Part shown: piece by piece, positions 333-16,666 of the stretch
Layout of the letters: the number at the start of each line of letters is the position of its first letter
Numbering within the stretch: the stretch's first letter is position 1
From: Nitrosopumilus sp.
GTDB lineage: Archaea > Thermoproteota > Nitrososphaeria > Nitrososphaerales > Nitrosopumilaceae
Assembly: GCA_965219345.1 (NCBI GenBank)
Contig: OZ244732.1
Location: 256,001-320,000, forward strand
Direction: 5' to 3'
DNA length: 64,000 bases
Position numbers and translations under genes: made by a program
Notes under the pieces: model-generated
What the model was told of the DNA's origin: nothing
Databases searched by the model: none
What the model saw: the letters and a program-made list of their open reading frames with translations, nothing else

Positions 333-911
333 CTATCTTCCTTTTATTGCAAAGTCCTTTCTAAGTGGAGGCAAGTCTGCCCAATCTTCTGGCAAAAGCA
401 ATCTTCTATTATCAGGATGACCTTCAAAGTAAACGCCAAACATTTCAAAAACTTCCCTTTCATGAAATTCCACGCTATAGAATACATCTCTAAGAGTGGG
501 AAGTTTGGTTGCATCATTTCCAGGAATTGGATTTTCTTCCCGTTGGGCTCTGGTAGATAAAGCAAGAATTTGTCTTGCTAATGAAGGGTCTGAGTAAGAA
601 CCTATATGATAAACAACTTCAATTTCTTTGTCTTGTGGATAATCTACGCCTGAAACAGACTCTACATGATCATAGTTTAATGCATCACGAATGAATTCTG
701 CAACATCATGCACATTTTCACGACTAACATTAATTCCAATTCTGTCTTTTTTTACAAATGCAATTTCAGCTTTATCACCAAATTTTTCAATGATTTTATC
801 GGAAATGCCCTTCTCAAACTCCGGTAATTCAGCTGATTTTTCTTCTGGTTTTTTTACTACGGGTTTAGCTTCAGGTGTTTCCTCTGTAGGCTTTTCAGAA
901 TCCGAACTCAT
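333..911 (-). CDS. nuoC: NADH-quinone oxidoreductase subunit C
   Basis: EREVFEMFGVYFEGHPDNRRLLLPEDW...PPLRKDF signature. Confidence 0.96.
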   Translation of the reverse strand: MSSDSEKPTEETPEAKPVVKKPEEKSAELPEFEKGISDKIIEKFGDKAEIAFVKKDRIGINVSRENVHDVAEFIRDALNYDHVESVSGVDYPQDKEIEVVYHIGSYSDPSLARQILALSTRAQREENPIPGNDATKLPTLRDVFYSVEFHEREVFEMFGVYFEGHPDNRRLLLPEDWADLPPLRKDFAIKGR

Positions 912-1145
912 TATACAAAGTCCTAGTCGTCATACATTTTAGCGTTTATTTGGGATTTTACATATACAAAAGATCGATATTTGGTAAAATCTGTCATTTT
1001 ATCATATATTATAACATAATAGTACCAGATTTCACTATTAAAATTTACTCTAATTAGGAATTATCTAATCTGGAGGGTCAGATTCATTCTAGGTGAGAAT
1101 GGATTCTCAAATGTTACATCTGATCCAAAGATAATTTCAGAATCA

Positions 1146-2036
1146 TTGAATTTAGTAATGAGTGGAATGTCTTACAGAAATATTGCACGACACGTTGAGA
1201 CAGTTCACCAAATCAGGATTATCCATGTATCTGTGAATAACTGGATAAAGAAATACACCGAATTAATCAAAAACTATGTAGGTTCTTTGAATCCTGAATT
1301 AAGTGATGTTTGGTCTTTAGATGAGATGTATCTTAATGTCAAGAACATCAAAAAGACAGGCAAGGGATTTCACGATTGGCTTTGGAGTATCATTGACCCT
1401 AAAACCAGATTCTTGATTGCCACAGAAGTCTCAAAGAAGAGGGAAATTTCAGATGCAAGAAAGATTATTGCTAGTGGCAAGAAGATAGTAACACAGAATC
1501 CAAACTATGTATTGACTGACTGTCTTAATTCCTATCAAGAAGCAATCAGAAAAGAGTTTGAAAACAAGACTGCACACATCAAGACAAAATCACTAAAGGA
1601 TGGATTCGTGAACAGACCTATTGAAAGATACCATAATGAGATAAGAGAAAGACTCAAAGCTAGACGTGGATTGGGAAATGATGAATCAGCACAGACATTC
1701 TCAGAGTTATTAAAAATCAATCACAACTTTGTCAAACCTCATGAAGGATTAGATGGTAAAACACCAGCTCAATCAGCAGGAATTAATCTTGATCTTGGTG
1801 AAAACAAGTATCTTGATTTGATAAAATTGTCTGGATCTAAAGTGAACTTTGTAAACAATCTAGGGAAGCGAATCAAGAAGGTTATAATAATCAATGAAGG
1901 TGATTCAATCAGAATTTCACCTAGAGATTGGATTGACAAGCAGATTTGGAGAGAGATTAACGACATTTTGAAACTGCATCAATTCAGCTGGCTCTCAAAT
2001 GGAAAAGATAGTTGTTGGCTTAAGATGAACTCTTAA
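1146..2036 (+). mobile_element. IS6-like DDE transposase, probably 5'-truncated
   Basis: HTH (SYRNIARH); DDE motifs WSLDEMY, VLTDCLNSY and NRPIERYH. Open upstream sequence (RFILGENGF) has no Zn ribbon or clear start. Confidence 0.8.
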
Positions 2037-2235
2037 TTCTGTTGTTAAAATACAGCGCCCAGCTAATAATCTGTGCAATTGTGCCAATTACAATTAATCC
2101 GAGACCAAACCGTACTCCAACATCACTAGAAACAGATGCTAAAACATCCAGGTATGATGATCCAAGATAGAGAATAACCCCAAGAAAAATAACTGCCAAA
2201 GTCTTACTCTCTGGAATTTCAGGAATCTTCACCAT
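2020..2235 (-). CDS. Small 2-TM membrane protein
   Basis: 71-aa ORF with two hydrophobic segments and an ATG start. Confidence 0.55.
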   Translation of the reverse strand: MVKIPEIPESKTLAVIFLGVILYLGSSYLDVLASVSSDVGVRFGLGLIVIGTIAQIISWALYFNNRIKSSS

Positions 2236-2268
2236 GGTTTATTTGCTATCATACCATGCTTAATATCC

Positions 2269-2378
2269 ATGTCCCTAAATGAACACTTTACCTAAATGTC
2301 CCGAGTTTGGAACAGTGTACAAAACAAGACACCGTTCAATATACGGAACATTTGAGAACAGTGTTCAATTAGGGACAT
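2269..2378. repeat. 110-bp element with 19-bp terminal inverted repeats and internal sub-repeats (MITE-like or recombination site)
   Basis: ATGTCCCTAAATGAACACT (2269-2287) vs AGTGTTCAATTAGGGACAT (2360-2378), 18/19 inverted match. Confidence 0.7.
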
Positions 2379-2530
2379 AAAATGTTAAATTTATTACTTT
2401 GGTCAAAACTAGGCGGATTTTCAACTGATGGTAAGTTCGGATGATTGGTGTTAAGTTAGGGTGGTCACTAGACGTGTGTGGCTAGTGTGAATTCTACAGA
2501 GTGGTAGTTATCGAGTGTTAAATTGTTAAG

Positions 2531-2824
2531 TTAGTGTACTGTAGGTTTGCACTTGCTACATGGCTTAGCATTTGGATACTTGATCATTATTTCTTTGATG
2601 GTATCATAATGCCAATATTGTTGTTTGTTTTTGTTACCAAGATTCATTTCACCAACAGTGCCATATCTTTCTTGATGTAGACGTTGTAAATTCTTACATG
2701 AAGTAAAATGAATTTTGGTTTTCTTTTCTATAGATTTTTTGGGCATGTGTATGACAATAAACCCTTTCATCTTCTTGTATGCGGTTTTAAGATCGCCACC
2801 TGTTAATAATTCCTCTTTTGGCAT
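2531..2824 (-). CDS. Small hypothetical protein with an Ada-like Zn-binding pattern
   Basis: HxxxC (HFTSC) plus C-terminal CxxCxP (CSKCKP). Confidence 0.55.
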   Translation of the reverse strand: MPKEELLTGGDLKTAYKKMKGFIVIHMPKKSIEKKTKIHFTSCKNLQRLHQERYGTVGEMNLGNKNKQQYWHYDTIKEIMIKYPNAKPCSKCKPTVH

Positions 2825-3114
2825 GTTATGGGTTAAACCAAGCTATAAAAAAATCAGGCGATCAGCTTAAACCAGCAACTATCTTTCCCATTGGATAACC
2901 AGCCAAACTATAAGGTCTTTGAATATCGGTTCTGTAAAGTCTAGGGTTGCTTTTTTTCTGTAAAGATCGGTTGTTATTCAACTTATAATATGAAGTTTAA
3001 ATTAACATATGAATTCAATCAAAACACTCAAAGATATTTTATATTATGCTATGATCTTGACGAACACATTTTATCATAATCAGCACGTTCAAAAACAAGA
3101 TCATGTGAAAGAAC

Positions 3115-4180
3115 TCATTTATATGCAGTTCCATTGAGAAGGTATGGTTTATCATGGCCTTCTTTGACTTGAACAACAACTATTATTCCATCATCAGTTG
3201 AAACATGCTAAAAATTAAAATCAATAAGAGGTTTACAATGATGTTCAATTAGGTGTTGGATTCTTGTATCTAATGATTTTAGTTCCTCATTTTTTATTCC
3301 AATTGTGGTTTGATTATCATAAACACCTAATAAGATTGAACGCCCTTTGTGTTTGCAAAAGATACAATACTTTCTAAAAAATCATTAGGCTTTTTGCCAA
3401 TTTCTACTTTAAATTCAACTTGTTCATTTTCTCCCTTTGCAATCATTTCAACAACATTTTCTTTGGATGTTCTTATTTGTACGCCATCATATCTATCACT
3501 ATGCCATCTGCCAAAAGATTTTAGATCAAGTATGTCGTTAGACGATTTTTCAATAAGATAACAATCAATTGTATCTGGAACAACAGAAACTTCTATCTCA
3601 CACATATTTTCTCTATTTAACTCTAAATTCTTGGAATTAAAGAATTGTTTTTTATTATTTGTGAAAAAAGTTTTCACGACTAACTCATCCGAAGAAATTT
3701 CTCGAGTTTCTATCTACATGATAATCTTATTTTTAGAAGTTATCATAGTTTTGATTTTTACCCTATAATCTGGTAGAAAAATTGCTAATTGTAATGGTGT
3801 ATTTTGAGGTGTAATGATTTCTGTTTCCATGAATGCAGAGATTGCATTATTTACACTAGGAAAAGCTAGCAGATTGCTATTTTTGACACATTCTACATCA
3901 TTTTCTTCAATGTTTGGGAAAAATAAATGTCCAATGCTGCTATTTGCACAATTGTTAAGCAACATAATGAGAATATCTGTATCAGATGAGAAAACCCTAA
4001 GTGTAGATTTTTCGGGAGCATATTTGAATCTCAACTTTAAGGATAAAGTTGCCAGTCAATGGCATGATAAAATAACAGAAATTTTAAAATAAGATTTTCA
4101 GACACGTCTTAAATTAAATTTAGGTTTCAGATTGAAACCACTTCGAAAATTAAGATTCTTTTCTGAAACAAGTCTTTCAT
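3115..4180 (-). pseudogene. Degraded gene with a C-terminal Schlafen/AlbA_2 domain
   Basis: Fragments 3714-4034 and 3327-3677 (GENEQVEFK...SIVSFANTKG). After a frameshift it continues as LLGVYDN...HCKP...*...VVVQVKEGHDKPY. Outer limits are approximate. Confidence 0.75.
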
Positions 4181-4231
4181 AAATTATGTTCTTTAGAAAT
4201 TATAAAACAATAGTATGTTGTAATAATTACA

Positions 4232-4945
4232 ATGATAAACAAAACAATTATCATTCCCGATATCCACAATGATTATCTCACAGCAGAAAAAATAATCAAA
4301 AAGGAAAATCCATACAAAATAATATTTCTAGGAGATTATTTTGATGACTTTGATGATACAGTACAAGATGCAATAAACACTGCAAAATGGCTTAAAGAAT
4401 CACTAAAACAAGAAAATAGAGTGCATCTGATTGGAAATCATGACCTGAGTTACATGACGGATAACCCTAATCTCAAATGTATGGGATATAGAACTGACAA
4501 ACACAAAGCAATCAAAAAGCATTCTATTGACTGGACCAAACTCAAAATGCATTATTTCATTGATGAGAAATGGTTGTGTACACATGCAGGATTTTCAAAT
4601 GATTTTCTCAAGCAACAACATACAAAAAAATCAGATTCAGTACAAAAAGTGTTAGATTACTCAAAAAAAGATTTAGAGAAAATTGATGATGAAAATTATA
4701 CTCATTCATTCTTTCAAGTAGGATTTATTCGTGGAGGCTCAAATGTAGTGGGCGGTCCTTTATGGTGCGATTATGGTGAATTTGTGGATGTTCCAAGAAT
4801 AAATCAAATTTTTGGACATACTCCAAATCATGTTGTTCGTCATCGTAAAACTAAGAATTCTGAGCATTATTGCATAGATACAAAATTGAGACATTATGTA
4901 GTATATCAAAACGGGATGATGCTCATGAAAGAACAATCAGGATGA
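4232..4945 (+). CDS. Calcineurin-like metallophosphoesterase
   Basis: Motifs DIH, GDYFD, GNHD, THAG and GHTP. Confidence 0.9.
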   Translation: MINKTIIIPDIHNDYLTAEKIIKKENPYKIIFLGDYFDDFDDTVQDAINTAKWLKESLKQENRVHLIGNHDLSYMTDNPNLKCMGYRTDKHKAIKKHSIDWTKLKMHYFIDEKWLCTHAGFSNDFLKQQHTKKSDSVQKVLDYSKKDLEKIDDENYTHSFFQVGFIRGGSNVVGGPLWCDYGEFVDVPRINQIFGHTPNHVVRHRKTKNSEHYCIDTKLRHYVVYQNGMMLMKEQSG

Positions 4946-5287
4946 GTTAATGAGAAAACTGTAATTGTCACCATGTTGTCAATAACAAAGAAATACAAAT
5001 CTGCCAAGATTTGATCACAGAAGAGTGTTGAAGCAATCACATGAATCTCTATGAGAGTTTCAAATTAATAATGTGGGACTCTGAGGGCATACAATTATTT
5101 GCTGTAAAATAATTTCAAACAAATCTCTCAAGAGAGATCATAGGAGTGTTCAAATCTCAAATGTACCAAAACAAATCTGTGAGAAAGATTTAGTCGTTAT
5201 AGCACTGCAATCGGGATCAAATTTTAAAAAAACAATGGAAATAATGTCATCACATTTACTTATAAAATTGAGAATCAAATCTAGAGT

Positions 5288-6784
5288 ATGAGTAATAGTA
5301 AGAAAGGAGGGGTTGTAATTAACAACGAACTAACTGATCCTTTAGGGGATTTTGTGATAGACTATCTCCTGGCACAAACAAAGGAGACAACTTATCATGA
5401 TTTTAAAGCGACACTTGACACGAGTAAAAATTCCAATGACATTTCCAAAATCATGAAAGACGTGTATGGGTTTTCAAACGCTGGTGGGGGTTTTCTTGTT
5501 TTAGGAGTACATGAAAACGATCATCTTACTGAAGACATCAAAGGCACATTTGCAAAACTTGGCCTTCCAGACGATTTTAAAATAGATCAAGCAACACTGC
5601 AAGAAAAAATCAATTCACATCTTGGAGACACTCCACTAAGTATAGGTTTTACAGAGTTTACAAGAAAGTTTTATGGCAAGGAGAGAAGATTTGCATTGGT
5701 GTATATTCCACCGTCTCCAAAAATACTAATTACTTCAAAAGATAGAATATACAAAGAGGGAGAGAAGGAGAAAACGGCCTATCACAAAGATACGATTTAC
5801 ACTAGAAGAGGCACTCAAAGCATTCCTGCACGGGAATATGAAATTGAGCAAATCAAAGAACGGATAAAAAATGAAAAATACAGACTGTCCATAATTAGCG
5901 GAGAGCCTGACGATGTAAAAGAAACTCTTTACAGCAATATATTCAAAGTCAAAAGTTTACCATCTACAGTTTATGTCGGAATTGCAAAATATTCTTCATT
6001 TAGTGAAACAATTAATGCATTAAGGGAAAAACATCCTGATGATAGACACTTTGATTTGCGATATATGTCATATGAAGATAAGATAGTATCTTTCCAAAAT
6101 CTGGAAAATCAAAGTAATATCAATCATGAATTAGTTGAAGAAGGTAGTGTTCATAAGGAATCTCTTGACAAATGGCTAGATGATGAAAACAGAGGGAAAA
6201 TTATCATTGCTCTTCTAAACAAGGAAGTAAATGCACATGCATTACGACAGAGAATGCATCAAGATGATAAAAGAAGGTTGTTTTATCCGGCATCAGCAGA
6301 CTATCGTTCTGAATCATGGCCAACTAGATACAAAGGGATTCAGAAAAAACAAGTGGCTAAATTAATATGGGCAGAACAACTAAAACACAAAGTCTATGCA
6401 CATGCAGCAATAAGACTCACAATTACAAAACTTCATGAACAATTTTACTTGAGAATAAACCTAACAATGGTAATTACAGATGATGGAAGACATGTTTCAA
6501 AAGATTCTAGATCAGGAACAATAATTACAAGAAGTTCTTATAACAAGTACAACAACAGTTATCTTAACAACATTCTATTTTGGATAAGCAAACTTGGCGA
6601 TGGTAAAGATCTTTTCATAGTACGAGATTTTGTTATCTCAAATGAACCAGTTCAAATCAACATAAACACAGGAATCAATTGGGACATTCCAACATCAGAT
6701 CTGAAAAGATTCATCGAAGAGTATGATGCAGAAGGAGAGGAAGAAGATGAAGAACCAGAAGAGGGGGACCAATATGACCTCTAA
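5288..6784 (+). CDS. Schlafen/AlbA_2 - APAZ fusion (short-Argonaute partner/effector)
   Basis: N-terminal AlbA_2 (ETTYHDFK...KDVYGFSNAGGGFLVLGVHE...YTRRGTQS). C-terminal APAZ-like region (ETLYSNIFKV...NNSYLNNILFW) and an acidic tail. Overlaps the pAgo start. Confidence 0.82.
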   Translation: MSNSKKGGVVINNELTDPLGDFVIDYLLAQTKETTYHDFKATLDTSKNSNDISKIMKDVYGFSNAGGGFLVLGVHENDHLTEDIKGTFAKLGLPDDFKIDQATLQEKINSHLGDTPLSIGFTEFTRKFYGKERRFALVYIPPSPKILITSKDRIYKEGEKEKTAYHKDTIYTRRGTQSIPAREYEIEQIKERIKNEKYRLSIISGEPDDVKETLYSNIFKVKSLPSTVYVGIAKYSSFSETINALREKHPDDRHFDLRYMSYEDKIVSFQNLENQSNINHELVEEGSVHKESLDKWLDDENRGKIIIALLNKEVNAHALRQRMHQDDKRRLFYPASADYRSESWPTRYKGIQKKQVAKLIWAEQLKHKVYAHAAIRLTITKLHEQFYLRINLTMVITDDGRHVSKDSRSGTIITRSSYNKYNNSYLNNILFWISKLGDGKDLFIVRDFVISNEPVQININTGINWDIPTSDLKRFIEEYDAEGEEEDEEPEEGDQYDL

Positions 6785-8321
6785 TTTTGAGACAACGTAC
6801 ATAGCAGAGCCTGATTTGGTGTTTGGAAATAAAGGAGAAGACAAGGATCCTAGATTAGGTCTAAAATATCACGGCCCATACTTTTACTCTACTGAAGATT
6901 CGCCTTTGGAAAGTGTGCGCATAGGAATAATTGGCAATAGTGAATGTACAGAAATGGCAGAAAAAATCATCAAATTAATTCAAGATCCTGTAAAAAGTCC
7001 AAAACCAAACCATTGGTTGTTTCCAGATTATCCTGGAATGAATAAGGATAGTCCATTTAGATGTAATCTAATTGCAGATCCTAACTGGAATGCCTCTCTA
7101 TCCGATGACTATGATCTAAGCAAAATAGAAAAAACCATGACAAACATGAATGAAAGAATTGCATACGGTGTAAATCTGTATGCAGACAAAGTTGAACAAA
7201 TCAAAAGTGGAGACAACATACCAAATGTAATTATTTGTACACTTCCAAAAATCGTGGAAAAATATTGTGGAATATCCGAATTTACTCGAGGTGCAAAGAA
7301 AATTATGTTGACAAAATTAGAAAAAGACATCATGGTAATGAAAGAAAAAGGACAGTCCTTTCTTACTGAATGGGGAGTGGAAGTAGCAGAAGATAAAAAA
7401 ATTAAGGAGAAAAGTTATGACTTTAGAAACTCACTAAAAGGTAAAGTGATGAAGCATGGAATCCCAATACAAATTATTAAAGAAAGTACAATGCATCAGA
7501 TTTTAAATTATGCATCATTGAGAAAAATTCAAAAAGAAAATCCAGCTGCATTTAGTTGGAATTTTAGTACTGCACTATACTACAAGGCAAATGGAAAGCC
7601 TTGGAGATTAGCAAAACTACGACAAGACACTTGTTATGTTGGAATATCATTTTTTGTAGATAAACTTCATCCCAAAAAAGAAATTCAAATTTCTATGGCA
7701 CAAGTGTTCACACATAATGGTGAAGGCCTTGTACTTCGAGGCTCGGAAGTGGAAATAAATGAACATATAAGGCAACCATGTTTGAAAAAGGAGCAAGCAA
7801 ATTCTTTGATGAAGCGTGCATTAGCAAAATACATTAAAAAAACAAAGAGCAATCCATCCAAAGTTGTAATTCACAAGTCATCTACATTTTCTCAAGATGA
7901 ACAAGATGGATTCAACGATGCAATCTATGAGTTAGGTAATGTGCAAAAGGATTTTGTTGCAGTTAGATCTACGTATTCTTGGGTTAACTTTTTGCGTCTA
8001 GGAAGTTTCCCGGTTCTCAGAGGAACCATGATTGACATTGACAAGAATGAATTCTTACTGTATACATCTGGATATTCACCTAGAATTCGTTCCTACGCAG
8101 GACATCGAGTTCCAAATCCACTTAGAATAATCCACATAGGGGATTCTAGTAAAGTAGAAGTTGCAACAGAGATTCTAGGTTTGACCAAACTTAACTGGAA
8201 CACCACTTCATTTTCCACACACTCGCCCATTACCATTAGATTTGCAGAAGGAGTTGGAAGAATCTTATCCGAGTTAAAAGATGATAAAGATTTACAGGAT
8301 CATTATAGGTTTTTCATGTGA
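6774..8321 (+). CDS. Short prokaryotic Argonaute (MID-PIWI, predicted non-slicing)
   Basis: YIAEPDLVFG, GLKYHGP, FRNSLK..GIPIQII, NFSTALYYKANGKPW, CYVGISF, LGLTKLNWN, PITIRFA, YRFFM-end. ATG 6774 follows GAGGGGG. Confidence 0.95.
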   Translation: MTSNFETTYIAEPDLVFGNKGEDKDPRLGLKYHGPYFYSTEDSPLESVRIGIIGNSECTEMAEKIIKLIQDPVKSPKPNHWLFPDYPGMNKDSPFRCNLIADPNWNASLSDDYDLSKIEKTMTNMNERIAYGVNLYADKVEQIKSGDNIPNVIICTLPKIVEKYCGISEFTRGAKKIMLTKLEKDIMVMKEKGQSFLTEWGVEVAEDKKIKEKSYDFRNSLKGKVMKHGIPIQIIKESTMHQILNYASLRKIQKENPAAFSWNFSTALYYKANGKPWRLAKLRQDTCYVGISFFVDKLHPKKEIQISMAQVFTHNGEGLVLRGSEVEINEHIRQPCLKKEQANSLMKRALAKYIKKTKSNPSKVVIHKSSTFSQDEQDGFNDAIYELGNVQKDFVAVRSTYSWVNFLRLGSFPVLRGTMIDIDKNEFLLYTSGYSPRIRSYAGHRVPNPLRIIHIGDSSKVEVATEILGLTKLNWNTTSFSTHSPITIRFAEGVGRILSELKDDKDLQDHYRFFM

Positions 8322-8332
8322 GGTGTTATGAA

Positions 8333-9271
8333 TTGACAATACGTTCACATTTTGTTCCACAGTTTTACCTGAAAAATTTTGGTGATAAAATCTACTTCTA
8401 TGACAAAACAACAGGGGACATAAAAGAAAGTAATGCATCAAACATTGCACTAAAGAAAGACTTCTATGGTCCTACTGATGAAAATAAATCCAATCCTGTT
8501 GAAACATCCATGAGTCAACTTGAAGGAAATGCAAATGCTGTAATCAGCAAAATTATTGATACTCTTGACTATGTCAAACTTTCTAAGAAAGAAAAGATTG
8601 ATTTTTGTTCTTTTGTTGCATTACAGTATCTTAGAACACAAGAAACAAGAATGCGCATTATACAGTCTGCTAACAAACTTTTTGATGAGATTGCAAAACG
8701 TAAAGAAGTAACTGACGCTGAAATAAGACATACAAAAGAAGGTGAGACAGGAGCACATCGTAACATAATGAAAGAATTCGACCCAATTTCAGCAGCACTT
8801 GGCCAGATGGGAGTTCTGGTTTGTTCAAACAGTACAAAAATTCCACTATGGACTTCGGACAATCCAGTCAATCTACATAATGAGTTTGATCAATTCCCCT
8901 TTGGGAATCTGGGCATTGTGTCAAAGGGAATAGAAATACACATTCCACTTTCTCCTACAGTAAAAATTGCATTCTTTGATCCAATTACATTCAAGAAAGA
9001 AATGCTGCCTGAATTATTTACAATGGAAGAAGCACAAGTTATTCATTCTAATCATCTTCAGACTTCGTGGTCTACTAGATTCATGTTTTCAAATACTGAC
9101 AAATTTTTTATGGCTGATAAGTATCTAAAAGCAAACCCTGAATCAAAGAATGTGGACCGAGAAAGACTAAGAACAGGAATTCGTGAATTAAAACCTGCAG
9201 ATTTTGAAGGTAAAGAATTCCACAAAAGACCGGAGTTTTGGATGGATCCTGAAATATTTGACAAGTTATGA
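8333..9271 (+). CDS. DUF4238 domain protein
   Basis: HFVPQFYLKNF, KDFY, FVALQYLRT and TSDNPV motifs. TTG 8333 follows GAGGTG; the alternative GTG 8318 overlaps the pAgo stop. Confidence 0.88.
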   Translation: MTIRSHFVPQFYLKNFGDKIYFYDKTTGDIKESNASNIALKKDFYGPTDENKSNPVETSMSQLEGNANAVISKIIDTLDYVKLSKKEKIDFCSFVALQYLRTQETRMRIIQSANKLFDEIAKRKEVTDAEIRHTKEGETGAHRNIMKEFDPISAALGQMGVLVCSNSTKIPLWTSDNPVNLHNEFDQFPFGNLGIVSKGIEIHIPLSPTVKIAFFDPITFKKEMLPELFTMEEAQVIHSNHLQTSWSTRFMFSNTDKFFMADKYLKANPESKNVDRERLRTGIRELKPADFEGKEFHKRPEFWMDPEIFDKL

Positions 9272-9304
9272 GACAAAGAAGATTAGAATTTTTACATATT
9301 ATAG

Positions 9305-10042
9305 TCACATAAGACTCATAAAATCTTCCAAGTTTTCTTTTTCATAATCCATATCCCCTTCAAGTTCAGTTAGATCATTCATTACAAATTCCACCATCTC
9401 TTTGAATGTGGATAAAGAATTGAAATATTTCAAAAAATCATTTTTGTCTTGGAGCGATGGTGTATCTTTTGTAGTGTAGGGGTATCTGAATCCGTCTGAA
9501 TTTTTATCTAGGTTTTGGAATTCTTCAATTATTAAACAAGTTTCATCGCTCAATCTTTCTGACTCAACTAGATTCTTCAAATTGCTTAACAGTTTGTCGA
9601 TGTCATGAGTTAATCCAAAATGACCTCCCTTGTGTAAAATAAGCCCTTTCAATTTTATTTCAATGTAATGTCTAAACAAAAATGATAATGGCGCAATTCC
9701 ATAATCATGTTCAGAAAGTAAAAGAACATCAGGACATACATCACGGATTATTTCTTTTTGTATTTCTTCATCAGTTTTTTCAAAATTTATCATGAGAGAT
9801 TTTAATGCTGATTTGTATACTTCCCCATAAGCAAGATAGTTTAGAGCTTTGTCAGGACTCAAATAAATGCCTGTAGCAAAATGACGTTCTTGCATAGTAG
9901 TACATATTGTCATCATCCTAAAAAGGTTAAAAATTATCTGAGATTGTATATTTTTTGTTCTATATTTACCGTACAAAGTAATCGTATCCTTCCTTGAGAT
10001 GTATTTGATTGGTTTTTTGACTTGCTTTATTTGATAATCCAA
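9305..10042 (-). CDS. Hypothetical protein, HEPN-like helical family (start uncertain)
   Basis: PLSFLFRHYIEIKLK...THDI...LDKNSDGFRYP pattern. Confidence 0.6.
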   Translation of the reverse strand: MDYQIKQVKKPIKYISRKDTITLYGKYRTKNIQSQIIFNLFRMMTICTTMQERHFATGIYLSPDKALNYLAYGEVYKSALKSLMINFEKTDEEIQKEIIRDVCPDVLLLSEHDYGIAPLSFLFRHYIEIKLKGLILHKGGHFGLTHDIDKLLSNLKNLVESERLSDETCLIIEEFQNLDKNSDGFRYPYTTKDTPSLQDKNDFLKYFNSLSTFKEMVEFVMNDLTELEGDMDYEKENLEDFMSLM

Positions 10043-10169
10043 TTAAAAATTTAATGAATTTTAGTGGTTTAACTGTGTAAAAAACATTATCTCTTCCTTC
10101 ACGTGTGTTAAAAATATTTTTTAATTCAACTTTTGCCTCATTATTGAATGTGAAATCAATTATTGATGG

Positions 10170-11023
10170 TACTTTGACTTTACCACCTTGTGTCTTTTCT
10201 GACCTGGCTTTAGTGAGGGCCTAAGACCGCAAGATTTGCCAAGTTTTCTCATTCCTGCATATACTCCACCTTTACCCATCCTTACAGGTTTTATTGTTCT
10301 AACAGATACAATCAGAGGATCCGTACCTTTTGGTTATGACATGAATCTGTCTTTCCATTCTTCTTTGTACAATAACAGGTAAGAGCCAGCTTCTGATGTA
10401 AAATTGGTCCAGTATTCTTCATCATCTCCTCTGTATATACAAGGTGCGCCCCCTTGAGTACCATCTTTATTGTAGAAAAATACCACGTCACCCCGGATAA
10501 AACAATCCCAAGCCTCCACTCTAAAACCTACAGAAGAGCACAAGGTTATGATTATTTTATCAGCTGTATCTGTTGCCTTTTTCATGATAGCTGCAGCCGT
10601 GGTCCGGTGCAGGCCCTGTCTTGTGATTTGCCGTCCTTTGGAATGGAGCGATCTAGCTTCTTCCGGGAAAAGTCAATATCATTTGCAGCAAACAATGCCT
10701 TGATTGGCTTTATGAGATTTCTTACCCTTGCAGGTGAAATTATCTTGTTTTCAATTTTCTTTTTTAGCTCCCTGACATATGCATTGATAATTGCCTTTCC
10801 GACAGATACATTTTGGCCTGCTAACTTGCAAGATCATCTGGCCTGATTTTGGGGGGTCTTTGCCAGTTACTAGGATCTGATTATCCACGCATATCTGCCA
10901 AGGTATCAGTTCTAGAAACTTTACAGGATCTCCTTGGTAGTTTCTTGGGGTTTTTTCATTTCCGATATGGTCAATAAAATTTTGATATGCTGGTGCTCTG
11001 TCTCTCTTCTAGCTGCAATCCAT
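10170..11023 (-). pseudogene. Decayed tyrosine recombinase/integrase
   Basis: Fragments AYQNFIDHI.., IKPIKALFAANDID.., LCSSVGFRVEAW, IYRGDDEEYWTNFTSEA and GLRPSL..RHKV resemble the intact integrase at 21292. Multiple stops and frameshifts; truncated before HxxR. Confidence 0.8.
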
Positions 11024-11060
11024 ACTGTACGTTAGAAAAAACATCTATTTTGGCGATTGA

Positions 11061-11588
11061 CTAGTATGAAAGCTTCCTAGCCTTCATTCTCTTAATTTTC
11101 TCTTGCAGCAAGATACATCCTTGTATGAGAGTTTCGGGTCTGGGTGGGCATCCTGGAACATAGACATCAACTGGAATTACTCCGTCAATTCCTGGAAGTA
11201 CATTGTATGAGTCAAAATACAGTCCTCCAGTAATTGCACAAGCTCCCATAGCAATTACATACTTTGGTTCTGGCATTTGATCATAAACTAATCTGAGACG
11301 TGGTGCCATTTTTCTTGTAATAGTTCCTTGAACAACAACTAGATCACATTGTCTAAGTGATCCAAATGCTTCAATGATGCCAAATCTTTCAACATCATAT
11401 CTGGGACTTGATGCTGCACCAAATTCTACACTGCAGCAAGCTGTTTCAATGTGGACAGGCCAGAGTGACCAAATTCTACCCCAGTTGATGGCGTAGCCCA
11501 ACGGTTTACCGATTGCTCTTTCTAAGATGTCTCCTAACTTTCCTACAAAGACATTTGCGTTTTCTGGCGTTACCAAGTCTTTAAGCAA
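11061..11588 (-). CDS. nuoB: NADH-quinone oxidoreductase subunit B
   Basis: TACCSVE, GACAITGG and VPGCPPRPE motifs. Confidence 0.97.
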   Translation of the reverse strand: MLKDLVTPENANVFVGKLGDILERAIGKPLGYAINWGRIWSLWPVHIETACCSVEFGAASSPRYDVERFGIIEAFGSLRQCDLVVVQGTITRKMAPRLRLVYDQMPEPKYVIAMGACAITGGLYFDSYNVLPGIDGVIPVDVYVPGCPPRPETLIQGCILLQEKIKRMKARKLSY

Positions 11589-11628
11589 TCTTATCCCTTA
11601 TCCTAGTAATTATAATTGATATAAAAAA

Positions 11629-12003
11629 CTACCATATTCTTCGTCTCCCTGACTGATACAATGCGAATGCCATTGCTCCAAACATTATAGCTAAGAATCC
11701 CATCATAGGCAAAGTAGCACTCTTTGGAAGTTCCAAAAGAGAACTTCCCCATGCATACAAGAAAATTGCCATGACATCAAAGACTACAAACATCAGAATG
11801 TAGGGATAATACTGCATCATAAAGTGAGTTCGTCCTTCTCCTGATGGAACCTGGCCACATTCCATTGGCAAAAACTTGACAGGATTACTTCTTTTTCTTG
11901 GTGAAATCATTCTTGAAATTACTAATGCAGGTGCCATCGCTGCTATGCCAAAGGCAAACATCAGTACTACGGTACTATAATTGCCCGCTAATTCCCCGAC
12001 CAA
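11629..12003 (-). CDS. nuoA: NADH-quinone oxidoreductase subunit A (start uncertain)
   Basis: MECG..., QYYPYILMFVVFDV, three TM helices; directly upstream of nuoB. Confidence 0.93.
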   Translation of the reverse strand: MVGELAGNYSTVVLMFAFGIAAMAPALVISRMISPRKRSNPVKFLPMECGQVPSGEGRTHFMMQYYPYILMFVVFDVMAIFLYAWGSSLLELPKSATLPMMGFLAIMFGAMAFALYQSGRRRIW

Positions 12004-12084
12004 TTTAGCTATTGACCCTAATTTTTGTATATAATTCAATCGTTTCAGGCACATTTATAGCACATTATAGTAGATATTAGAGAA

Positions 12085-13921: not shown

Positions 13922-16666
13922 ATGAGACCTGAAGACAGTGCACGCCAAGAAATTGACAAAATGTTGATTGATTCAGGCTGGATTATCCAAGATTATGAGG
14001 ATAGAAATCTTAGTGCTGGATTGGGCATAGCAGTAAGAGAATACCCTCTAAATAAGGACAATGCAGATTATGCACTATTCATTGATTCGCAACCTGTAGG
14101 AGTAATTGAGGCAAAAAAGTATGGCCATACACTTAGTGGAGTAGTTGAACAATCTGAAAAATATCTTGATGGACTATATGAAAAATTTACAAATGCCCCC
14201 ATAAGACCTCCATTCTCATATGAGACAACAGGAATTGAAACTAAATTTGCAGACAGACGTGATCCAAATCATCGCTCACGCTATGTGTTCTCATTTCATC
14301 GTCCAGAATTATTACAGGCATGGCTTAAAGAAGAAGAAACATTACGTGCGAGATTAAAGGATATTCCAAAACTAGACTATGAAAAACTTTGGAATTGTCA
14401 AACAGAGGCAATCACAAATCTAGAAGATTCTTTTGCGCAGAATAATCCACGTGCGTTAATCCAGATGGCAACGGGTTCAGGTAAAACATTTACCGCAGTA
14501 ACTTCAATTTATAGACTGATAAAATTTGCAAAAGCAAAAAAAGTTTTGTTTCTAGTTGACAGATCTAATTTGGGCAGACAGGCATTACGTGAATTTCAAC
14601 AGTATCAAACCCCTGATGATGGACGGAAATTTACTGATTTGTATAATGTACAACTGTTACAATCACATACAATTGATCCCATATCTAAAGTTGTAATATC
14701 TACAATTCAAAGAATGTTTTCAGTTCTAAAAGATGACAAAGACTATGTGGAAGAAAATGACGAGTTTTCTGTATATGAGGAAAATTCTGATGAAACTCCT
14801 GTAGATGTAAAATATAATGAAAATATTCCAATTGGTGAATTTGATTTTATTGTAATTGACGAGTGCCATCGTTCCATCTACAACAAATGGAAACAGGTAT
14901 TGGATTACTTTGATTCATTTCTAATTGGATTAACTGCAACTCCTTCAAATGATACCATAGGATTTTTCAAGAATAATCAAGTGATGAGATATACTCATGA
15001 GCGAGCGATAGTTGATGAGGTAAACGTGGGATATCATGTATACAGGATTAAAACCAAAATTAGTGAGCAGGGTGGCGGTGTCGATGCAGGTCAATTTGTT
15101 GAAAAGCGTGATAGACTTACACGTGAACAAACAGCAGAAAAATTAAATGAAGACCTAATTTTTACCAGAGAAGAATTAGATAGATCTATAGTAACAAGGG
15201 ATCAGATCAGACTAGTTGTTAGAACATTTAAAGAGAAATTACCTGAGATCTTTCCAAACAGAACAGAGGTTCCTAAGACCCTGATTTTTACAAAAAATGA
15301 TTCTCATGCCGAAGATGTTACAGAAATTGTTCGAGAAGAGTTTGGATTGGGAAACAATTTTTGCAAAAAAATCACATATCGTAGTACAGAAAAACCCGAA
15401 GAATTGATCTCTAGTTTTAGAAATTCCCCAATGCCACGAGTTGCAGTGACAGTAGATATGATTGCAACTGGAACTGACATCAAACCGCTAGAATGCATTA
15501 TATTTATGCGAGATGTAAAGTCTAAAAACTACTTTGATCAGATGAAAGGCCGTGGCACTAGAACCATTAAACCTGATGATCTAATTGCAGTTACACCTGA
15601 TGCAAAAGCTAAAACTCATTTTGTAATAGTTGATGCAGTAGGTGTATGCGAACATTCCATGAGTGATACTCATTCATTATTTAGAAAACTAAATGGGTCA
15701 TTTAAGATACTTTTAGACAAGGCAGTTGACAAAAATGCAGATACTGAAGACATTGAAAGCTTGGTGTATCGCTTATCTAGATTAAATAGAAAATTAAGCC
15801 AAGAAGATAAAGATGAAATTACTAATGCAAATAATGGGAAATCACTTACAAATATAGAAAAAACATTACTTGATGGAATTGATTCTGATAAAATACTAGA
15901 AAAGGCAAAAGGACAATTTCATACTTTAGAGCCAACTACTGAGCAAATTAAAAAAATATCAAAACAGATGATTGATGAGGCATGCAAAGTATTCGATTCT
16001 GCAAAACTGCGTAAAACAATTCTTGATATCAAAAGCAAAAATGAGCAAATCATCGATGATGTATCAATTGATGAATTACTCGAAGCAGGATTTTTAGATA
16101 AAGTACAAAATATTGACAAAAAGACTATTGAAAACTGGACTCTATTCATTGAGAAGAACAGAGATCAGATTACAGCACTTGATATTATTTACTCAAAACC
16201 ATACAGGATGAGGGAGATTACATTTTCAGATATCAAGAATTTGGCACATGCCATTGAAAAACCTCCATACAATCTAACTTCTAGGATTCTTTGGAATGCT
16301 TACCAAAGACTAGATAAATCCAGAGTAAAGAGCAATCCAGTTAAGATGCTGACTGATTTGATTTCACTTGTACGTTATTCATCTGGAAAAGAGGAGTCAT
16401 TGTTGCCATTTTCAGAAATTATACATGAAAAATTTGAGAAATGGCTTACTCAACAAGAGTCTTCTGGACGCCAGTTCACATCAGAACAAAAGGAGTGGCT
16501 TGTAATGATCAAAAATGCCGTTGCAAGTTCTGTTTCAATTGAGATAGATGCACTCGATGATGTTCCATTTAATCAAAAAGGTGGCAGAGTAAAGTTTTAT
16601 GAGATATTTGGAGATGAATATGAGAAGATTTTAGATGAATTACATGAGGTGTTGATTAATCAATGA
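13922..16666 (+). CDS. hsdR: Type I restriction enzyme subunit R (EcoEI-like)
   Basis: ADY..VIEAKK nuclease; MATGSGKT, IDECHRS, LTATP and QMKGRGTR helicase motifs. Confidence 0.96.
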   Translation: MRPEDSARQEIDKMLIDSGWIIQDYEDRNLSAGLGIAVREYPLNKDNADYALFIDSQPVGVIEAKKYGHTLSGVVEQSEKYLDGLYEKFTNAPIRPPFSYETTGIETKFADRRDPNHRSRYVFSFHRPELLQAWLKEEETLRARLKDIPKLDYEKLWNCQTEAITNLEDSFAQNNPRALIQMATGSGKTFTAVTSIYRLIKFAKAKKVLFLVDRSNLGRQALREFQQYQTPDDGRKFTDLYNVQLLQSHTIDPISKVVISTIQRMFSVLKDDKDYVEENDEFSVYEENSDETPVDVKYNENIPIGEFDFIVIDECHRSIYNKWKQVLDYFDSFLIGLTATPSNDTIGFFKNNQVMRYTHERAIVDEVNVGYHVYRIKTKISEQGGGVDAGQFVEKRDRLTREQTAEKLNEDLIFTREELDRSIVTRDQIRLVVRTFKEKLPEIFPNRTEVPKTLIFTKNDSHAEDVTEIVREEFGLGNNFCKKITYRSTEKPEELISSFRNSPMPRVAVTVDMIATGTDIKPLECIIFMRDVKSKNYFDQMKGRGTRTIKPDDLIAVTPDAKAKTHFVIVDAVGVCEHSMSDTHSLFRKLNGSFKILLDKAVDKNADTEDIESLVYRLSRLNRKLSQEDKDEITNANNGKSLTNIEKTLLDGIDSDKILEKAKGQFHTLEPTTEQIKKISKQMIDEACKVFDSAKLRKTILDIKSKNEQIIDDVSIDELLEAGFLDKVQNIDKKTIENWTLFIEKNRDQITALDIIYSKPYRMREITFSDIKNLAHAIEKPPYNLTSRILWNAYQRLDKSRVKSNPVKMLTDLISLVRYSSGKEESLLPFSEIIHEKFEKWLTQQESSGRQFTSEQKEWLVMIKNAVASSVSIEIDALDDVPFNQKGGRVKFYEIFGDEYEKILDELHEVLINQ

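What the first reader, a model, noticed from the sequence alone, without database searches (positions are those of the whole stretch)
5288..9271. Archaeal short-Argonaute system with a Schlafen(AlbA_2)-APAZ effector and a coupled DUF4238 gene
Seen: three tightly coupled genes. Gene 1 has an AlbA_2 domain retaining acidic residues at the Schlafen catalytic-like positions (E-x4-D-FK ... KD), fused to an APAZ-like region. Gene 2 is a MID-PIWI-only Argonaute with GISF where slicers have GID. Gene 3 is DUF4238. Known: short pAgos heterodimerise with APAZ-effector fusions (SIR2 in SPARSA, TIR in SPARTA, DUF4365/DREN in SPARDA) and trigger abortive infection on guide-target pairing. Schlafen cores are tRNA endonucleases, and DUF4238 is an anti-phage domain. 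Inference: a guide-programmed sensor that switches on tRNA/RNA cleavage. AlbA-APAZ fusions may already appear in comparative surveys, but I know of no characterised example, nor one from ammonia-oxidising archaea.
Basis: partly seen in the sequence, partly recalled or inferred. Interest (0 to 1): 0.92.

Follow-up and report, generated by a model that had tools for sequence, protein, structure and literature searches.

The report
Archaeal Schlafen-APAZ short Argonaute defence operon
An ammonia-oxidising archaeon carries, on a strain-specific 10-kb island, a two-gene short-Argonaute immune system whose predicted weapon is a Schlafen RNA-cutting domain, a type listed in surveys but not found tested; the DUF4238 gene behind it looks like a separate defence gene.

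Summary
Window 5288-9271 carries three same-strand, abutting genes: a Schlafen(AlbA_2)-APAZ fusion, a MID-PIWI short pAgo and a DUF4238 protein.

The first two are a conserved cassette. In 26 of 26 related loci with a full-length Schlafen-APAZ gene, the pAgo lies directly downstream. Single-chain natural fusions also exist. The C-terminal half has an APAZ fold closest to SPARHA and SPARDA. E33, D38 and K40 are invariant and align with the proven catalytic residues of the tRNase CbCash.

DUF4238 is not part of the conserved system. It is missing from all related pAgo loci, including an 88%-identical one. Similarity to an abundant relative ends at the pAgo stop codon.

The genes sit in a roughly 10.15-kb strain-specific island that splits nuoB from nuoC.

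Most likely mechanism (inferred): guide-dependent DNA sensing switches on Schlafen RNase and causes abortive infection.

Schlafen-APAZ partners of short pAgos are already catalogued in print, and I found no characterised example. Verdict: a new member of a known but untested kind, of moderate interest.

The parts
5288..6784 (+). Gene 1: Schlafen(AlbA_2)-APAZ effector protein, 498 aa (P0001)
   Evidence: ORF. Pfam SLFN_AlbA_2 6e-12. PADLOC APAZ models down to 1.5e-25. AF2 model with mean pLDDT 82.4.
5384..5830 (+). Schlafen/AlbA_2 nuclease-type domain (residues 33-181), with E33-x4-D38-x-K40, K57-D58 and the (A/G)FSN-GGG box
   Evidence: Pfam match range. E33, D38, K40, K57 and N64 are 37/37 and D58 is 36/37 in alignment A1. 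The profile aligns E33/D38/K40 on CbCash E17/D22/K24 and on the E-x4-E-x-K motif of SLFN8 and SLFN14. The catalytic role of E17/D22/K24 comes from PMC13462974.
5897..6676 (+). APAZ domain (residues about 204-463)
   Evidence: PADLOC PNTD1-PNTD2 models. Profile against PDB: HNH-APAZ 9om4_A at 4.1e-27, and DREN/DUF4365-APAZ chains. Foldseek: 9om4_A E 2.1e-15 with TMt 0.73, 9vx1_E TMt 0.84, then SPARTA chains.
6713..6781 (+). Acidic, predicted-disordered C-terminal tail (residues about 476-498; 14 D/E and 0 K/R in the last 22)
   Evidence: pLDDT below 50 for residues 479-498. 34 of 37 family members have a net charge of -5 or lower in the last 22 or fewer residues. The analogy to the SPARTA acidic C-tail is an inference from 10.1101/2023.07.12.548734.
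6774..8321 (+). Gene 2: short pAgo (MID-PIWI), 515 aa (P0002); start overlaps the gene 1 stop by 11 nt
   Evidence: PADLOC pAgo_I 1.9e-141. PDB sequence matches: SPARDA Ago 9jsb_A 3.7e-67, SPARHA 9om4_B 3.2e-56, SPARTA 8ifk_B 1.1e-53. R/H218, K222, Q233, K271 and the C-terminal M515 are conserved in 25 of 25 sequences.
8318..9271 (+). Gene 3: DUF4238 protein (317 aa from GTG 8318, or 312 aa from TTG 8333); judged a separate single-gene defence module
   Evidence: Pfam PF14022 6.5e-41. Start analysis. Absent from related pAgo loci. AF2 pLDDT 90.5 with no solved structural relative found.
920..11074 (.). Strain-specific island of about 10.15 kb inserted between nuoC (333-911, -) and nuoB (11061-11588, -). 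It holds the operon, an IS240-type transposase ORF, a Schlafen pseudogene, a metallophosphoesterase gene and a HEPN gene
   Evidence: The two flanks lie within about 105 nt of each other in 13 of 17 other same-genus genomes. nuo identities. Junction alignment with an imperfect ~25-nt direct repeat. Empty-site joints 919->11075 and 806->11073 in contigs of run X5.

Best explanation
Genes 1 and 2 form a self-contained two-gene short-Argonaute defence system. Its APAZ and pAgo parts are closest to the SPARHA and SPARDA (clade S2B-type) systems, but the APAZ is fused to a single-lobe Schlafen/AlbA_2 RNase domain instead of an HNH or DREN DNase.

Proposed mechanism:
1. The Schlafen-APAZ protein and the catalytically dead MID-PIWI pAgo form a heterodimer that mimics a long pAgo.
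2. The complex loads 5'-phosphorylated small guides, probably RNA, in the R/H-K-Q-K pocket of the MID domain.
3. [quoted passage not shown]
4. Pairing of the guide with invader DNA expels the tail and drives pAgo-mediated oligomerisation.
5. Oligomerisation brings Schlafen domains together into an active nuclease that cuts tRNA, or other cellular RNA. Translation stops and infection or plasmid establishment is aborted.

Shown here: domain identities, APAZ fold, invariant catalytic-type residues, strict gene pairing, natural fusions and location on an island. Inferred: the complex, the guide type, tail autoinhibition, oligomerisation, the RNA substrate and the abortive outcome.

Gene 3 (DUF4238) is most likely an independent single-gene defence module that landed directly behind the pAgo stop codon in this lineage. 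It is probably co-transcribed with the operon.
For: Identity of the parts:
- Pfam SLFN_AlbA_2 and PADLOC APAZ models on gene 1, and PADLOC pAgo_I 1.9e-141 on gene 2.
- The family profile hits the HNH-APAZ chain of SPARHA at 4.1e-27 and DREN-APAZ chains of SPARDA.
- The AF2 model (pLDDT 82.4) matches APAZ chains of SPARHA, SPARDA and SPARTA at E 2e-15 to 1e-9.
- The pAgo matches solved short pAgos of SPARDA, SPARHA and SPARTA.

Functional linkage of genes 1 and 2:
- The pAgo lies directly downstream in 26 of 26 loci with a full-length Schlafen-APAZ match, out of 30 loci fetched. The other four are a contig-end truncation, a fragment and two bacterial Schlafen-only hits.
- P0116 (981 aa) is a single chain. 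Residues 8-432 match gene 1 and residues 482-981 match the pAgo at 46% identity, E 9e-159. P0105 shows the same arrangement.

Nuclease competence:
- E33, D38 and K40 are invariant in 37 of 37 sequences and in 25 of 25.
- They align with CbCash E17/D22/K24. Mutating those residues abolishes tRNA cleavage by CbCash (PMC13462974, passages read).
- The same E(x)4(D/E)xK motif and SAFAN box define the tRNase of the Schlafen-pAgo RzAgo, which DNA target recognition switches on (preprint 10.64898/2026.05.29.728809, sections 5 and 10 read).

Guide pocket: R/H218, K222, Q233 and K271 and the C-terminal residue are conserved in 25 of 25 pAgos. The Y/R-K-Q-K pocket is described in PMC6299218.

Acidic tail: 34 of 37 members have a strongly acidic tail.

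Defence context: the genes lie on a strain-specific island, and the sampling is sporadic, with pAgo in 10 of 201 family genomes and 0 of 16 same-genus genomes.

DUF4238 as a separate module:
- 0 of 30 related loci carry it.
- It is not downstream in the 88%-identical L049.
- 0 of 10 downstream genes of relatives are DUF4238.
- 0 of 14 DUF4238 loci hold a pAgo or a Schlafen-APAZ gene.
- In run X5 a contig of a high-depth relative (about 89% identical over 6423-7565) covers the pAgo. One contig there runs into unlike sequence at 8319, the pAgo stop, and the high depth falls off in the same bin. I infer that the two belong together.
- DUF4238 alone protects E. coli against T7 (PMC9122126).
Against: - No experiment or expression data bear on this locus. 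Heterodimer formation, guide loading, oligomerisation and the RNA substrate are all inferred from other systems.
- The Schlafen domain here is a single lobe without the GHKL ATPase that drives RzAgo tetramerisation (Pfam finds only SLFN_AlbA_2 in gene 1). How an active two-lobe site would form is unknown.
- Schlafen/AlbA_2 domains were earlier annotated as DNA-binding domains in pAgo operons (PMC6299218).
- My assignment of K271 as the fourth pocket residue, and of S292 and H367-K368 to slicer catalytic positions, rests partly on recalled motif positions.
- The near-zero spacing between pAgo and DUF4238, with a possible ribosome-binding site overlapping the pAgo stop, is what a functional operon partner would also show.
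- I could not see the genomic context of the closest DUF4238 homologues (66-82% identity, P0236-P0240).
Confidence: 0.7

Rival explanations
1. Three-component system. DUF4238 is a lineage-specific functional partner of the Schlafen-APAZ/pAgo complex, such as a second effector, a regulator or a guide-biogenesis factor. It would be co-translated with the pAgo.
For: The gene is on the same strand and starts between -4 and +11 nt from the pAgo stop. A GAGGTG motif lies 8 nt before the TTG that corresponds to the homologues' start. DUF4238 has no known mechanism (PMC9122126) and no solved structural relative was found, so a partner role cannot be excluded on mechanistic grounds. One family genome (G061) holds two DUF4238 homologues, and a pAgo C-terminal fragment lies about 11 kb from one of them.
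Against: 0 of 30 related Schlafen-APAZ loci carry DUF4238. The closest pAgo relative with context (88% identity) has a convergent endonuclease-domain gene instead. 0 of 14 DUF4238 loci hold a pAgo. In run X5 a contig runs into unlike sequence at the pAgo stop, where a relative's high depth also ends. [quoted passage not shown] DUF4238 works alone in E. coli.
Confidence: 0.1
2. The Schlafen domain is not a tRNase here. It could act as a nucleic-acid-binding or regulatory module, or it could cut a different substrate such as rRNA, mRNA or DNA. The immune output would then differ from tRNA depletion.
For: AlbA_2/Schlafen domains in pAgo operons were first classed as DNA-binding (PMC6299218). CbCash also cut 16S rRNA in vitro. 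The closest APAZ/pAgo relatives, SPARHA and SPARDA, are DNases. The domain lacks the second lobe and the ATPase of characterised Schlafen enzymes.
Against: The metal-binding E-x4-D-x-K residues and the KD/FSN-GGG box are invariant across 37 sequences down to 33% identity. That degree of conservation is expected for a catalytic site, not for a mere binding module. Every prokaryotic Schlafen tested in the papers I read cleaves tRNA.
Confidence: 0.15
3. The locus is a decaying or silent remnant of a horizontally acquired island and has no current function.
For: The same island holds a frameshifted Schlafen pseudogene and a transposase ORF. The island is absent from the same-genus genomes sampled.
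Against: All three ORFs are intact and full-length relative to their homologues. All invariant family residues are retained in the window's proteins.
Confidence: 0.04

Closest known systems
SPARHA (short pAgo + HNH-APAZ; PDB 9om4) and SPARDA (short pAgo + DREN/DUF4365-APAZ; PDB 9jsb, 9qbp, 9qbl), clade S2B-type short pAgo systems
   Same: Two-gene operon with the effector-APAZ gene upstream of a MID-PIWI pAgo. The APAZ is closest by sequence (9om4_A 4.1e-27) and by fold. The pAgo is closest by sequence (9jsb_A 3.7e-67, 9om4_B 3.2e-56). It has the RK/HK-type MID pocket.
   Different: The effector domain is a Schlafen/AlbA_2 RNase-type domain, not an HNH or PD-(D/E)XK DNase. The predicted collateral substrate is therefore RNA rather than DNA. 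Filament formation has not been tested here.
SPARTA (short pAgo + TIR-APAZ)
   Same: Heterodimer logic. The APAZ fold matches (8z8y_B, 8i88_C and others) and the pAgo is homologous (1.1e-53). The effector protein has a strongly acidic C-terminal tail, like the autoinhibitory SPARTA C-tail. TIR-APAZ/pAgo pairs occur in the same archaeal family.
   Different: The effector is a TIR NADase rather than a Schlafen domain. Tail function has not been tested here.
SLFN-pAgo (RzAgo, Runella zeae; preprint 10.64898/2026.05.29.728809)
   Same: An Argonaute sensor coupled to a Schlafen domain with the E(x)4(D/E)xK and SAFAN motifs. In RzAgo, target DNA recognition switches on tRNA cleavage and abortive infection. 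This is the best functional analogue.
   Different: RzAgo is a single extra-long long-B pAgo of 1,071-1,187 aa with PAZ and a GHKL ATPase that drives tetramerisation. Here there is no GHKL and no PAZ, there are two polypeptides, and the pAgo is a short one. [quoted passage not shown]
Cash (CRISPR-associated Schlafen, CbCash; PMC13462974) and bacterial Schlafens (PMC13056530)
   Same: A single-lobe prokaryotic Schlafen nuclease domain. The catalytic E17/D22/K24 of CbCash align with E33/D38/K40. These enzymes are activated by oligomerisation and cleave tRNA.
   Different: The sensor is Csx15 with cA4, or other fused sensors, rather than APAZ/pAgo. That paper lists Schlafen domains linked to short pAgos as 'Cluster 6' without testing them.
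Rst_DUF4238-type single-gene defence (Rousset et al. 2022, PMC9122126)
   Same: Gene 3 is a full-length PF14022 protein (6.5e-41). DUF4238 genes occur on prophage or viral contigs (11 loci) and in defence hotspots.
   Different: Identity to those viral-contig homologues is only 21-29%. The PADLOC DUF4238 model matches weakly (1.3e-3). Here the gene abuts a pAgo.

Membership tests
Short pAgo system (short pAgo + APAZ-effector) | pAgo consists of MID and PIWI only (no N or PAZ domain) | tested here: met
   515 aa. The PADLOC pAgo_I profile is matched over 1-455 of 455 positions at 1.9e-141. Full-length alignment to solved short pAgos of 471-507 aa.
Short pAgo system (short pAgo + APAZ-effector) | PIWI lacks the catalytic DEDX tetrad | tested here: inconclusive
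   The local motif CYVGISFF is the same as in the solved inactive SPARDA pAgo 9jsb_A (CYVGISFY). S292 is S in 22 and A in 3 of 25 sequences, and H367-K368 are invariant. Mapping these to the slicer D positions is recalled, and I did not align against an active pAgo.
Short pAgo system (short pAgo + APAZ-effector) | Adjacent gene encodes an APAZ domain fused to an effector domain | tested here: met
   PADLOC PNTD1-PNTD2 models, profile against PDB, Foldseek, and adjacency in 26 of 26 loci.
Short pAgo system (short pAgo + APAZ-effector) | MID pocket for a 5'-phosphorylated guide (Y/H/R-K-Q-K) | tested here: met
   R218 (20 R, 5 H), K222, Q233 and K271 are conserved in 25 of 25 sequences. R-to-K spacing of 4 and K-to-Q spacing of 11 match RsAgo Y463/K467/Q478 (PMC6299218). 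The assignment of K271 is tentative.
Short pAgo system (short pAgo + APAZ-effector) | pAgo and the APAZ protein form a heterodimer, and the effector is activated by guide-target pairing | not testable with these tools
   Only indirect support is available: natural single-chain fusions P0116 and P0105.
SPARDA / SPARHA | Effector domain is a DREN (DUF4365) or HNH nuclease | tested here: not met
   The N-terminal domain is SLFN_AlbA_2. Similarity to 9om4_A and the DREN-APAZ chains covers only residues from about 186 to 440.
Prokaryotic Schlafen nuclease | E-x4-(E/D)-x-K catalytic motif | tested here: met
   E33, D38 and K40 are 37/37. They align with CbCash E17/D22/K24 and with the SLFN8 and SLFN14 motifs.
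Prokaryotic Schlafen nuclease | SAFAN-type Schlafen box followed by a Gly/hydrophobic core | tested here: met
   YGFSNAGGGFLVLGV in the window, with family consensus AFSNYGGGWLxLGV. N64, G66, G68 and G73 are invariant. The motif is defined.
Prokaryotic Schlafen nuclease | Metal-dependent RNA (tRNA) cleavage | not testable with these tools
   Requires biochemistry.
SLFN-pAgo (RzAgo type) | Single long-B pAgo chain with SLFN + GHKL ATPase + PAZ-MID-PIWI | tested here: not met
   There are two separate genes. Pfam finds no GHKL/HATPase_c_4 match in gene 1 at E <= 0.1. The pAgo is of the short type.
DUF4238 (PF14022) defence protein | Full-length match to PF14022 | tested here: met
   E 6.5e-41, profile positions 2-280 of 281. 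Family invariants H11, P14, E62, E69, Q103, R106, S180, D181 and others are retained.
DUF4238 (PF14022) defence protein | Anti-phage activity as a stand-alone gene | not testable with these tools
   Shown only for an E. coli P2-hotspot homologue (PMC9122126).

The most novel reading that the evidence does not exclude
DUF4238 has been recruited in this lineage as a third, translationally coupled component of the Schlafen-APAZ/pAgo system. It might act as a second effector or as a modulator triggered by the activated complex. That would be the first short-pAgo system with an obligate extra subunit, and it would give the orphan DUF4238 fold a mechanistic context.
Probability: 0.1. Interest if true: 0.7.

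Novelty: new member of a known kind. Interest (0 to 1): 0.45.

Why it matters
Short pAgo systems with NADase (SPARTA, SPARSA) and DNase (SPARDA, SPARHA) effectors have been solved. The Schlafen-APAZ branch has only been listed in surveys. This locus and its family offer a compact two-protein, ATPase-free version of the Argonaute-to-Schlafen wiring recently shown for RzAgo. The family comprises 85 hits in a capped search. 27 of the 30 loci fetched carry archaeal labels, 25 of them among the 26 full-length ones. Natural single-chain fusions also exist.

Characterising the system would show three things:
- how a single-lobe Schlafen RNase is switched on by pAgo oligomerisation;
- whether tRNA depletion is an immune output in archaea, including ecologically dominant ammonia oxidisers whose virus defence is little studied;
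- whether a programmable, DNA-triggered RNase could be added to pAgo-based detection tools.

Showing that DUF4238 is not a conserved partner stops the locus from being misread as a three-gene system.

Tried and rejected
- Complex prediction on two copies of the Schlafen domain (residues 8-198, alignment A1): verdict 'no answer', score 0.00 against a mark of 0.42, controls not run. This is no evidence either way. I did not test the APAZ/pAgo pair or DUF4238 with that tool, because only one job was allowed.
- The look-up of sequencing runs listed no RNA holder, so nothing can be said on expression or co-transcription.
- Read laying used assembled contigs only. Parts of runs X6 and X7 without cover say nothing.
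- A metagenome scan with DUF4238 found no relative. A scan of viral contigs with the Schlafen-APAZ alignment found none.
- DUF4238 fold searches gave no hit: Foldseek against PDB had 0 matches at E <= 0.001, and VIA-align against 48,161 chains gave a best Z of 3.7. This does not show that the fold is new.
- Searching the window's genome with the flank of L001 found nothing. I therefore could not judge the 'Gammaproteobacteria' label of that contig.
- The repeat finder gave no clear terminal repeats for the island. The imperfect direct repeat emerged only from the junction alignment.
- I considered and rejected membership in SPARDA, SPARHA and RzAgo-type SLFN-pAgo, because the effector or the architecture does not match.
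- No phylogenetic tree of short pAgos with reference clades was built. Placement rests on E-value ranking against solved structures.

Full report
**1. What is in the sequence**

Window 5288-9271 holds three + strand ORFs.

- Gene 1 (5288-6784, 498 aa) matches Pfam SLFN_AlbA_2 over residues 33-181, at E 6e-12 and 46.6 bits against a cut-off of 25.3. It matches nine PADLOC models of APAZ-bearing Argonaute-associated proteins over residues about 204-463, best E 1.5e-25.
- Gene 2 matches PADLOC pAgo_I over the whole profile at E 1.9e-141. Pfam's own Piwi model did not report it at E <= 0.1.
- Gene 3 matches Pfam DUF4238 at 6.5e-41.

The best start of gene 2 is the ATG at 6774, which overlaps the gene 1 stop by 11 nt. 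Gene 3 starts either at GTG 8318, a 4-nt overlap, or at TTG 8333. The TTG corresponds to the first residue of homologues that begin MTIRSH, and GAGGTG lies 8 nt upstream. A TTATAAAA-like stretch lies about 20-30 nt upstream of the gene 1 ATG. Reading it as an archaeal TATA box for a leaderless transcript is my inference and was not tested.

**2. The Schlafen-APAZ protein**

A word-indexed search found 85 homologues, nearly all about 480-515 aa with the same Pfam domain. Those that carry names come from Nitrosopumilaceae, Nitrosotenuis, Nitrosotalea, Nitrososphaeria, Methanoperedens, Aenigmarchaeota and Nanoarchaeota. The exhaustive search gave 494 hits at E <= 0.001 and 49 at E <= 1e-30.

I aligned the query with 36 of the 85 hits to make alignment A1, which reaches down to 33% identity. 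E33, D38, K40, K57, N64, G66, G68 and G73 are invariant, and D58 is present in 36 of 37 sequences.

A profile of the N-terminal domain alone (A3, 25 sequences) finds CbCash (1e-4), SLFN8 (1.1e-4) and SLFN14 (2e-3) among solved structures. The printed alignments put E33/D38/K40 on CbCash E17/D22/K24 and on the E-x4-E-x-K motif of the mammalian catalytic lobe. In CbCash these residues hold a Mg2+ ion at the tRNA T-loop, and mutating them abolishes cleavage (PMC13462974, passages). The same motif plus the SAFAN box defines the nuclease of RzAgo (preprint, section 10) and of bacterial Schlafens (PMC13056530, passage).

The C-terminal half is APAZ:
- The A1 profile hits the HNH-APAZ chain of SPARHA (9om4_A, 4.1e-27, residues 186-440) and DREN/DUF4365-APAZ chains of SPARDA.
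- The AlphaFold2 model (mean pLDDT 82.4) has APAZ chains of SPARHA, SPARDA and SPARTA as its top Foldseek matches, for example 9om4_A at E 2.1e-15 with TMt 0.73 and 9vx1_E with TMt 0.84.

The last 20 or so residues are predicted disordered and extremely acidic, with 14 D/E and no K/R in the last 22. A strongly acidic tail recurs in 34 of 37 family members. In SPARTA an acidic C-tail of TIR-APAZ plugs the guide-target channel and autoinhibits the complex (preprint 10.1101/2023.07.12.548734, passages). A similar role here is an inference.

**3. The pAgo**

Its closest solved relatives are the pAgos of SPARDA (9jsb_A 3.7e-67, 9qbp_B 4.9e-63), SPARHA (9om4_B 3.2e-56) and SPARTA (8ifk_B 1.1e-53). 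8in8_C is far behind at 1.4e-25.

I aligned 25 pAgos, the window plus 24 loci. R/H218 (20 R, 5 H), K222, Q233 and K271 are conserved in all of them. Their spacing matches the first three residues of the Y/R-K-Q-K 5'-phosphate pocket. The protein ends in an invariant HY(R/K)F(Y/F)M. Position 292 is S in 22 and A in 3 of 25 sequences, within the GISF motif that is shared with the inactive SPARDA pAgo. That this is the slicer Asp position is recalled, not tested.

**4. Which genes belong together**

A scan of one genome per species returned 30 loci. In all 26 whose match spans the full Schlafen-APAZ protein, a pAgo homologue (43-76% identity) begins within about 20-80 nt downstream. Two of these are cut by contig ends. 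The four loci without a pAgo are a contig-end truncation (L022), a 120-residue fragment (L027) and two bacterial Schlafen-only matches (L029, L030).

Two proteins in the representative library are single chains that join the two genes. In P0116 (981 aa), residues 8-432 match gene 1 and residues 482-981 match the pAgo at 46% identity, E 9e-159. P0105 (913 aa) shows the same arrangement. Gene-calling read-through cannot be excluded, but there are two separate cases.

By record title, 27 of the 30 loci are archaeal. One full-length locus (L001) is labelled Gammaproteobacteria, and I could not check that label.

DUF4238 behaves differently:
- tblastn found it in 0 of the 30 loci. Among 46 loci searched later, it appeared only in the three that had been fetched with DUF4238 itself.
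- The closest pAgo relative with context (L049, 88% identity) is followed by a convergent 501-aa ORF with an RE_endonuc domain.
- The genes downstream of the pAgo in ten relatives are an endonuclease domain, a ThaI restriction enzyme, a DNA methylase, an HTH protein, ribosomal protein S12 and five ORFs without a Pfam family. None is DUF4238.
- Conversely, 0 of 14 DUF4238 loci (3 from family genomes, 11 from viral contigs) hold a pAgo or a Schlafen-APAZ gene.
- In run X5, from a different study than the probable source sample, a contig of a high-depth relative (about 89% identical over 6423-7565) covers the pAgo region. One contig there runs into unlike sequence at 8319, the pAgo stop, and the high depth falls off in the same bin. 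I infer that these belong together.
- DUF4238 alone protects E. coli against T7 (PMC9122126, passage).

I therefore read gene 3 as an independent module placed directly behind the pAgo. Its mechanism is unknown. The AF2 model is confident (pLDDT 90.5), but neither Foldseek nor VIA-align found a solved relative.

**5. Genomic setting**

The genome encodes archaeal AmoA, so the host is an ammonia-oxidising archaeon.

Window 333-911 is nuoC, 11061-11588 is nuoB and 11629-12054 is nuoA, all on the minus strand. In 13 of 17 other same-genus genomes, the sequences matching window 1 to about 933 and 11070-12034 lie within about 105 nt of each other. The roughly 10.15 kb between about 920 and 11074 is therefore an insertion inside the nuo operon.

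An alignment with the uninterrupted junction of G207 shows that both island ends keep a copy of the junction sequence. This forms an imperfect direct repeat of about 25 nt, with 17 of 25 positions identical by my count. Contigs in run X5 show the empty site directly, through joints 919->11075 and 806->11073.

The island also carries:
- an IS240-type DDE transposase ORF, which has paralogues elsewhere in the genome;
- a frameshifted Schlafen pseudogene;
- a metallophosphoesterase gene and a HEPN-domain gene.

None of these accompanies the cassette in relatives. A type I restriction-modification system lies just outside the island.

Within the family, the pAgo was found in 10 of 201 sampled genomes and in 0 of 16 same-genus ones. 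DUF4238 was found in 3 of 201. Five of the nine other pAgo-bearing family genomes carry a different pAgo, only 35-37% identical, with an APAZ-type gene upstream. I scanned four of the five upstream genes and all four are TIR-APAZ.

**6. Mechanism**

Shown here: the domain identities, the APAZ fold, the invariant catalytic-type residues, the strict pairing of genes 1 and 2, the natural fusions and the island context.

Inferred by analogy with SPARTA, SPARDA and SPARHA for the sensor, and with RzAgo and Cash for the effector:
- heterodimer formation;
- 5'-P guides, probably RNA, and DNA targets;
- release of the acidic tail;
- pAgo-driven oligomerisation that pairs single-lobe Schlafen domains into an active RNase;
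- cleavage of tRNA;
- abortive infection.

My confidence that this is a Schlafen-APAZ/short pAgo system is about 0.95. My confidence in the whole mechanistic chain is about 0.6. My confidence that DUF4238 is a separate module is about 0.8.

**7. Comparison with what is known, and novelty**

Schlafen-type domains fused to APAZ in short-pAgo operons are already listed in four papers, of which I read passages or the named sections:
- PMC6299218: orthogroup og_40, SIR2_1 plus Schlafen with APAZ.
- The SPARTA preprint introduction: 'Schlafen/Alba' among APAZ-appended domains.
[quoted passage not shown] 1e legend and section 5.
- PMC13462974: 'Cluster 6'.

Full-text searches found no characterised example. 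A search for Argonaute together with Nitrosopumil* and defence returned two unrelated papers.

The system is not a SPARDA, SPARHA or RzAgo-type member, because the defining effector or architecture is not met. It is a new member of a catalogued but untested kind. A specialist would find the inference expected after the 2026 Schlafen papers, yet the family is a good, compact experimental target. Interest 0.45.

Noticed in passing
window 333-911, about 920-11074, 11061-12054: The defence island splits the NADH dehydrogenase operon between nuoB and nuoC. Both ends keep an imperfect ~25-nt copy of the original junction. The empty site is seen in 13 of 17 other same-genus genomes and in contigs of run X5. 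Whether nuoC and the genes after it are still properly expressed is open.
   Followed up: partly
window 1146-2036 (+): An ORF with a DDE_Tnp_IS240 domain (3.2e-14). It has 76-82% DNA-identical copies elsewhere in this genome and in same-genus genomes. An imperfect 57-nt inverted repeat lies at 1987-2043 / 2847-2903.
   Followed up: partly
window about 3121-3713 (-): A second Schlafen/AlbA_2 gene, now a pseudogene. Profile positions 1-32 and 32-107 lie in different frames, with one TAG inside. E-x4-E-x-K and SFAN are still readable.
   Followed up: partly
window 4232-4945 (+) and 9305-10042 (-): A calcineurin-like metallophosphoesterase (2.4e-10) and a HEPN-domain protein (1.3e-6) flank the operon inside the island. 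Neither is found near the cassette in relatives. An 82% DNA-identical copy of the phosphoesterase gene sits elsewhere in a same-genus genome.
   Followed up: partly
window 13922-17889 (+): Type I restriction-modification genes lie just outside the island. hsdR matches ResIII and EcoEI_R_C, and hsdS matches Methylase_S. The neighbouring ORFs up to about 21145 were not examined.
   Followed up: no
L039, L040, L042, L043 (genomes G190, G052, G010, G131): Other genomes of the same ammonia-oxidiser family carry TIR-APAZ + short pAgo (SPARTA-like) pairs. Their pAgo is 35-37% identical to the window's.
   Followed up: partly
proteins P0116 (981 aa), P0105 (913 aa), P0100 (559 aa), P0205 (864 aa): Architectural variants of the family. 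P0116 and P0105 are single-chain Schlafen-APAZ-MID-PIWI fusions. P0100 is a Schlafen-APAZ with an N-terminal winged-helix domain. P0205 is an APAZ protein with SIR2_2 plus HATPase_c_4.
   Followed up: partly
window 8318-9271 (model m3d430b3d912b): DUF4238 gives a confident model (pLDDT 90.5, pTM 0.89), but neither Foldseek nor VIA-align found a solved structural relative. Family invariants include H11, P14, E62, E69, Q103, R106, S180-D181 and N245.
   Followed up: partly
G061:C1 about 898633-913103 (L034, L044): One family genome has two distant DUF4238 homologues. A 61-aa pAgo C-terminal fragment lies about 11 kb from one of them, which may mark a decayed defence island.
   Followed up: no
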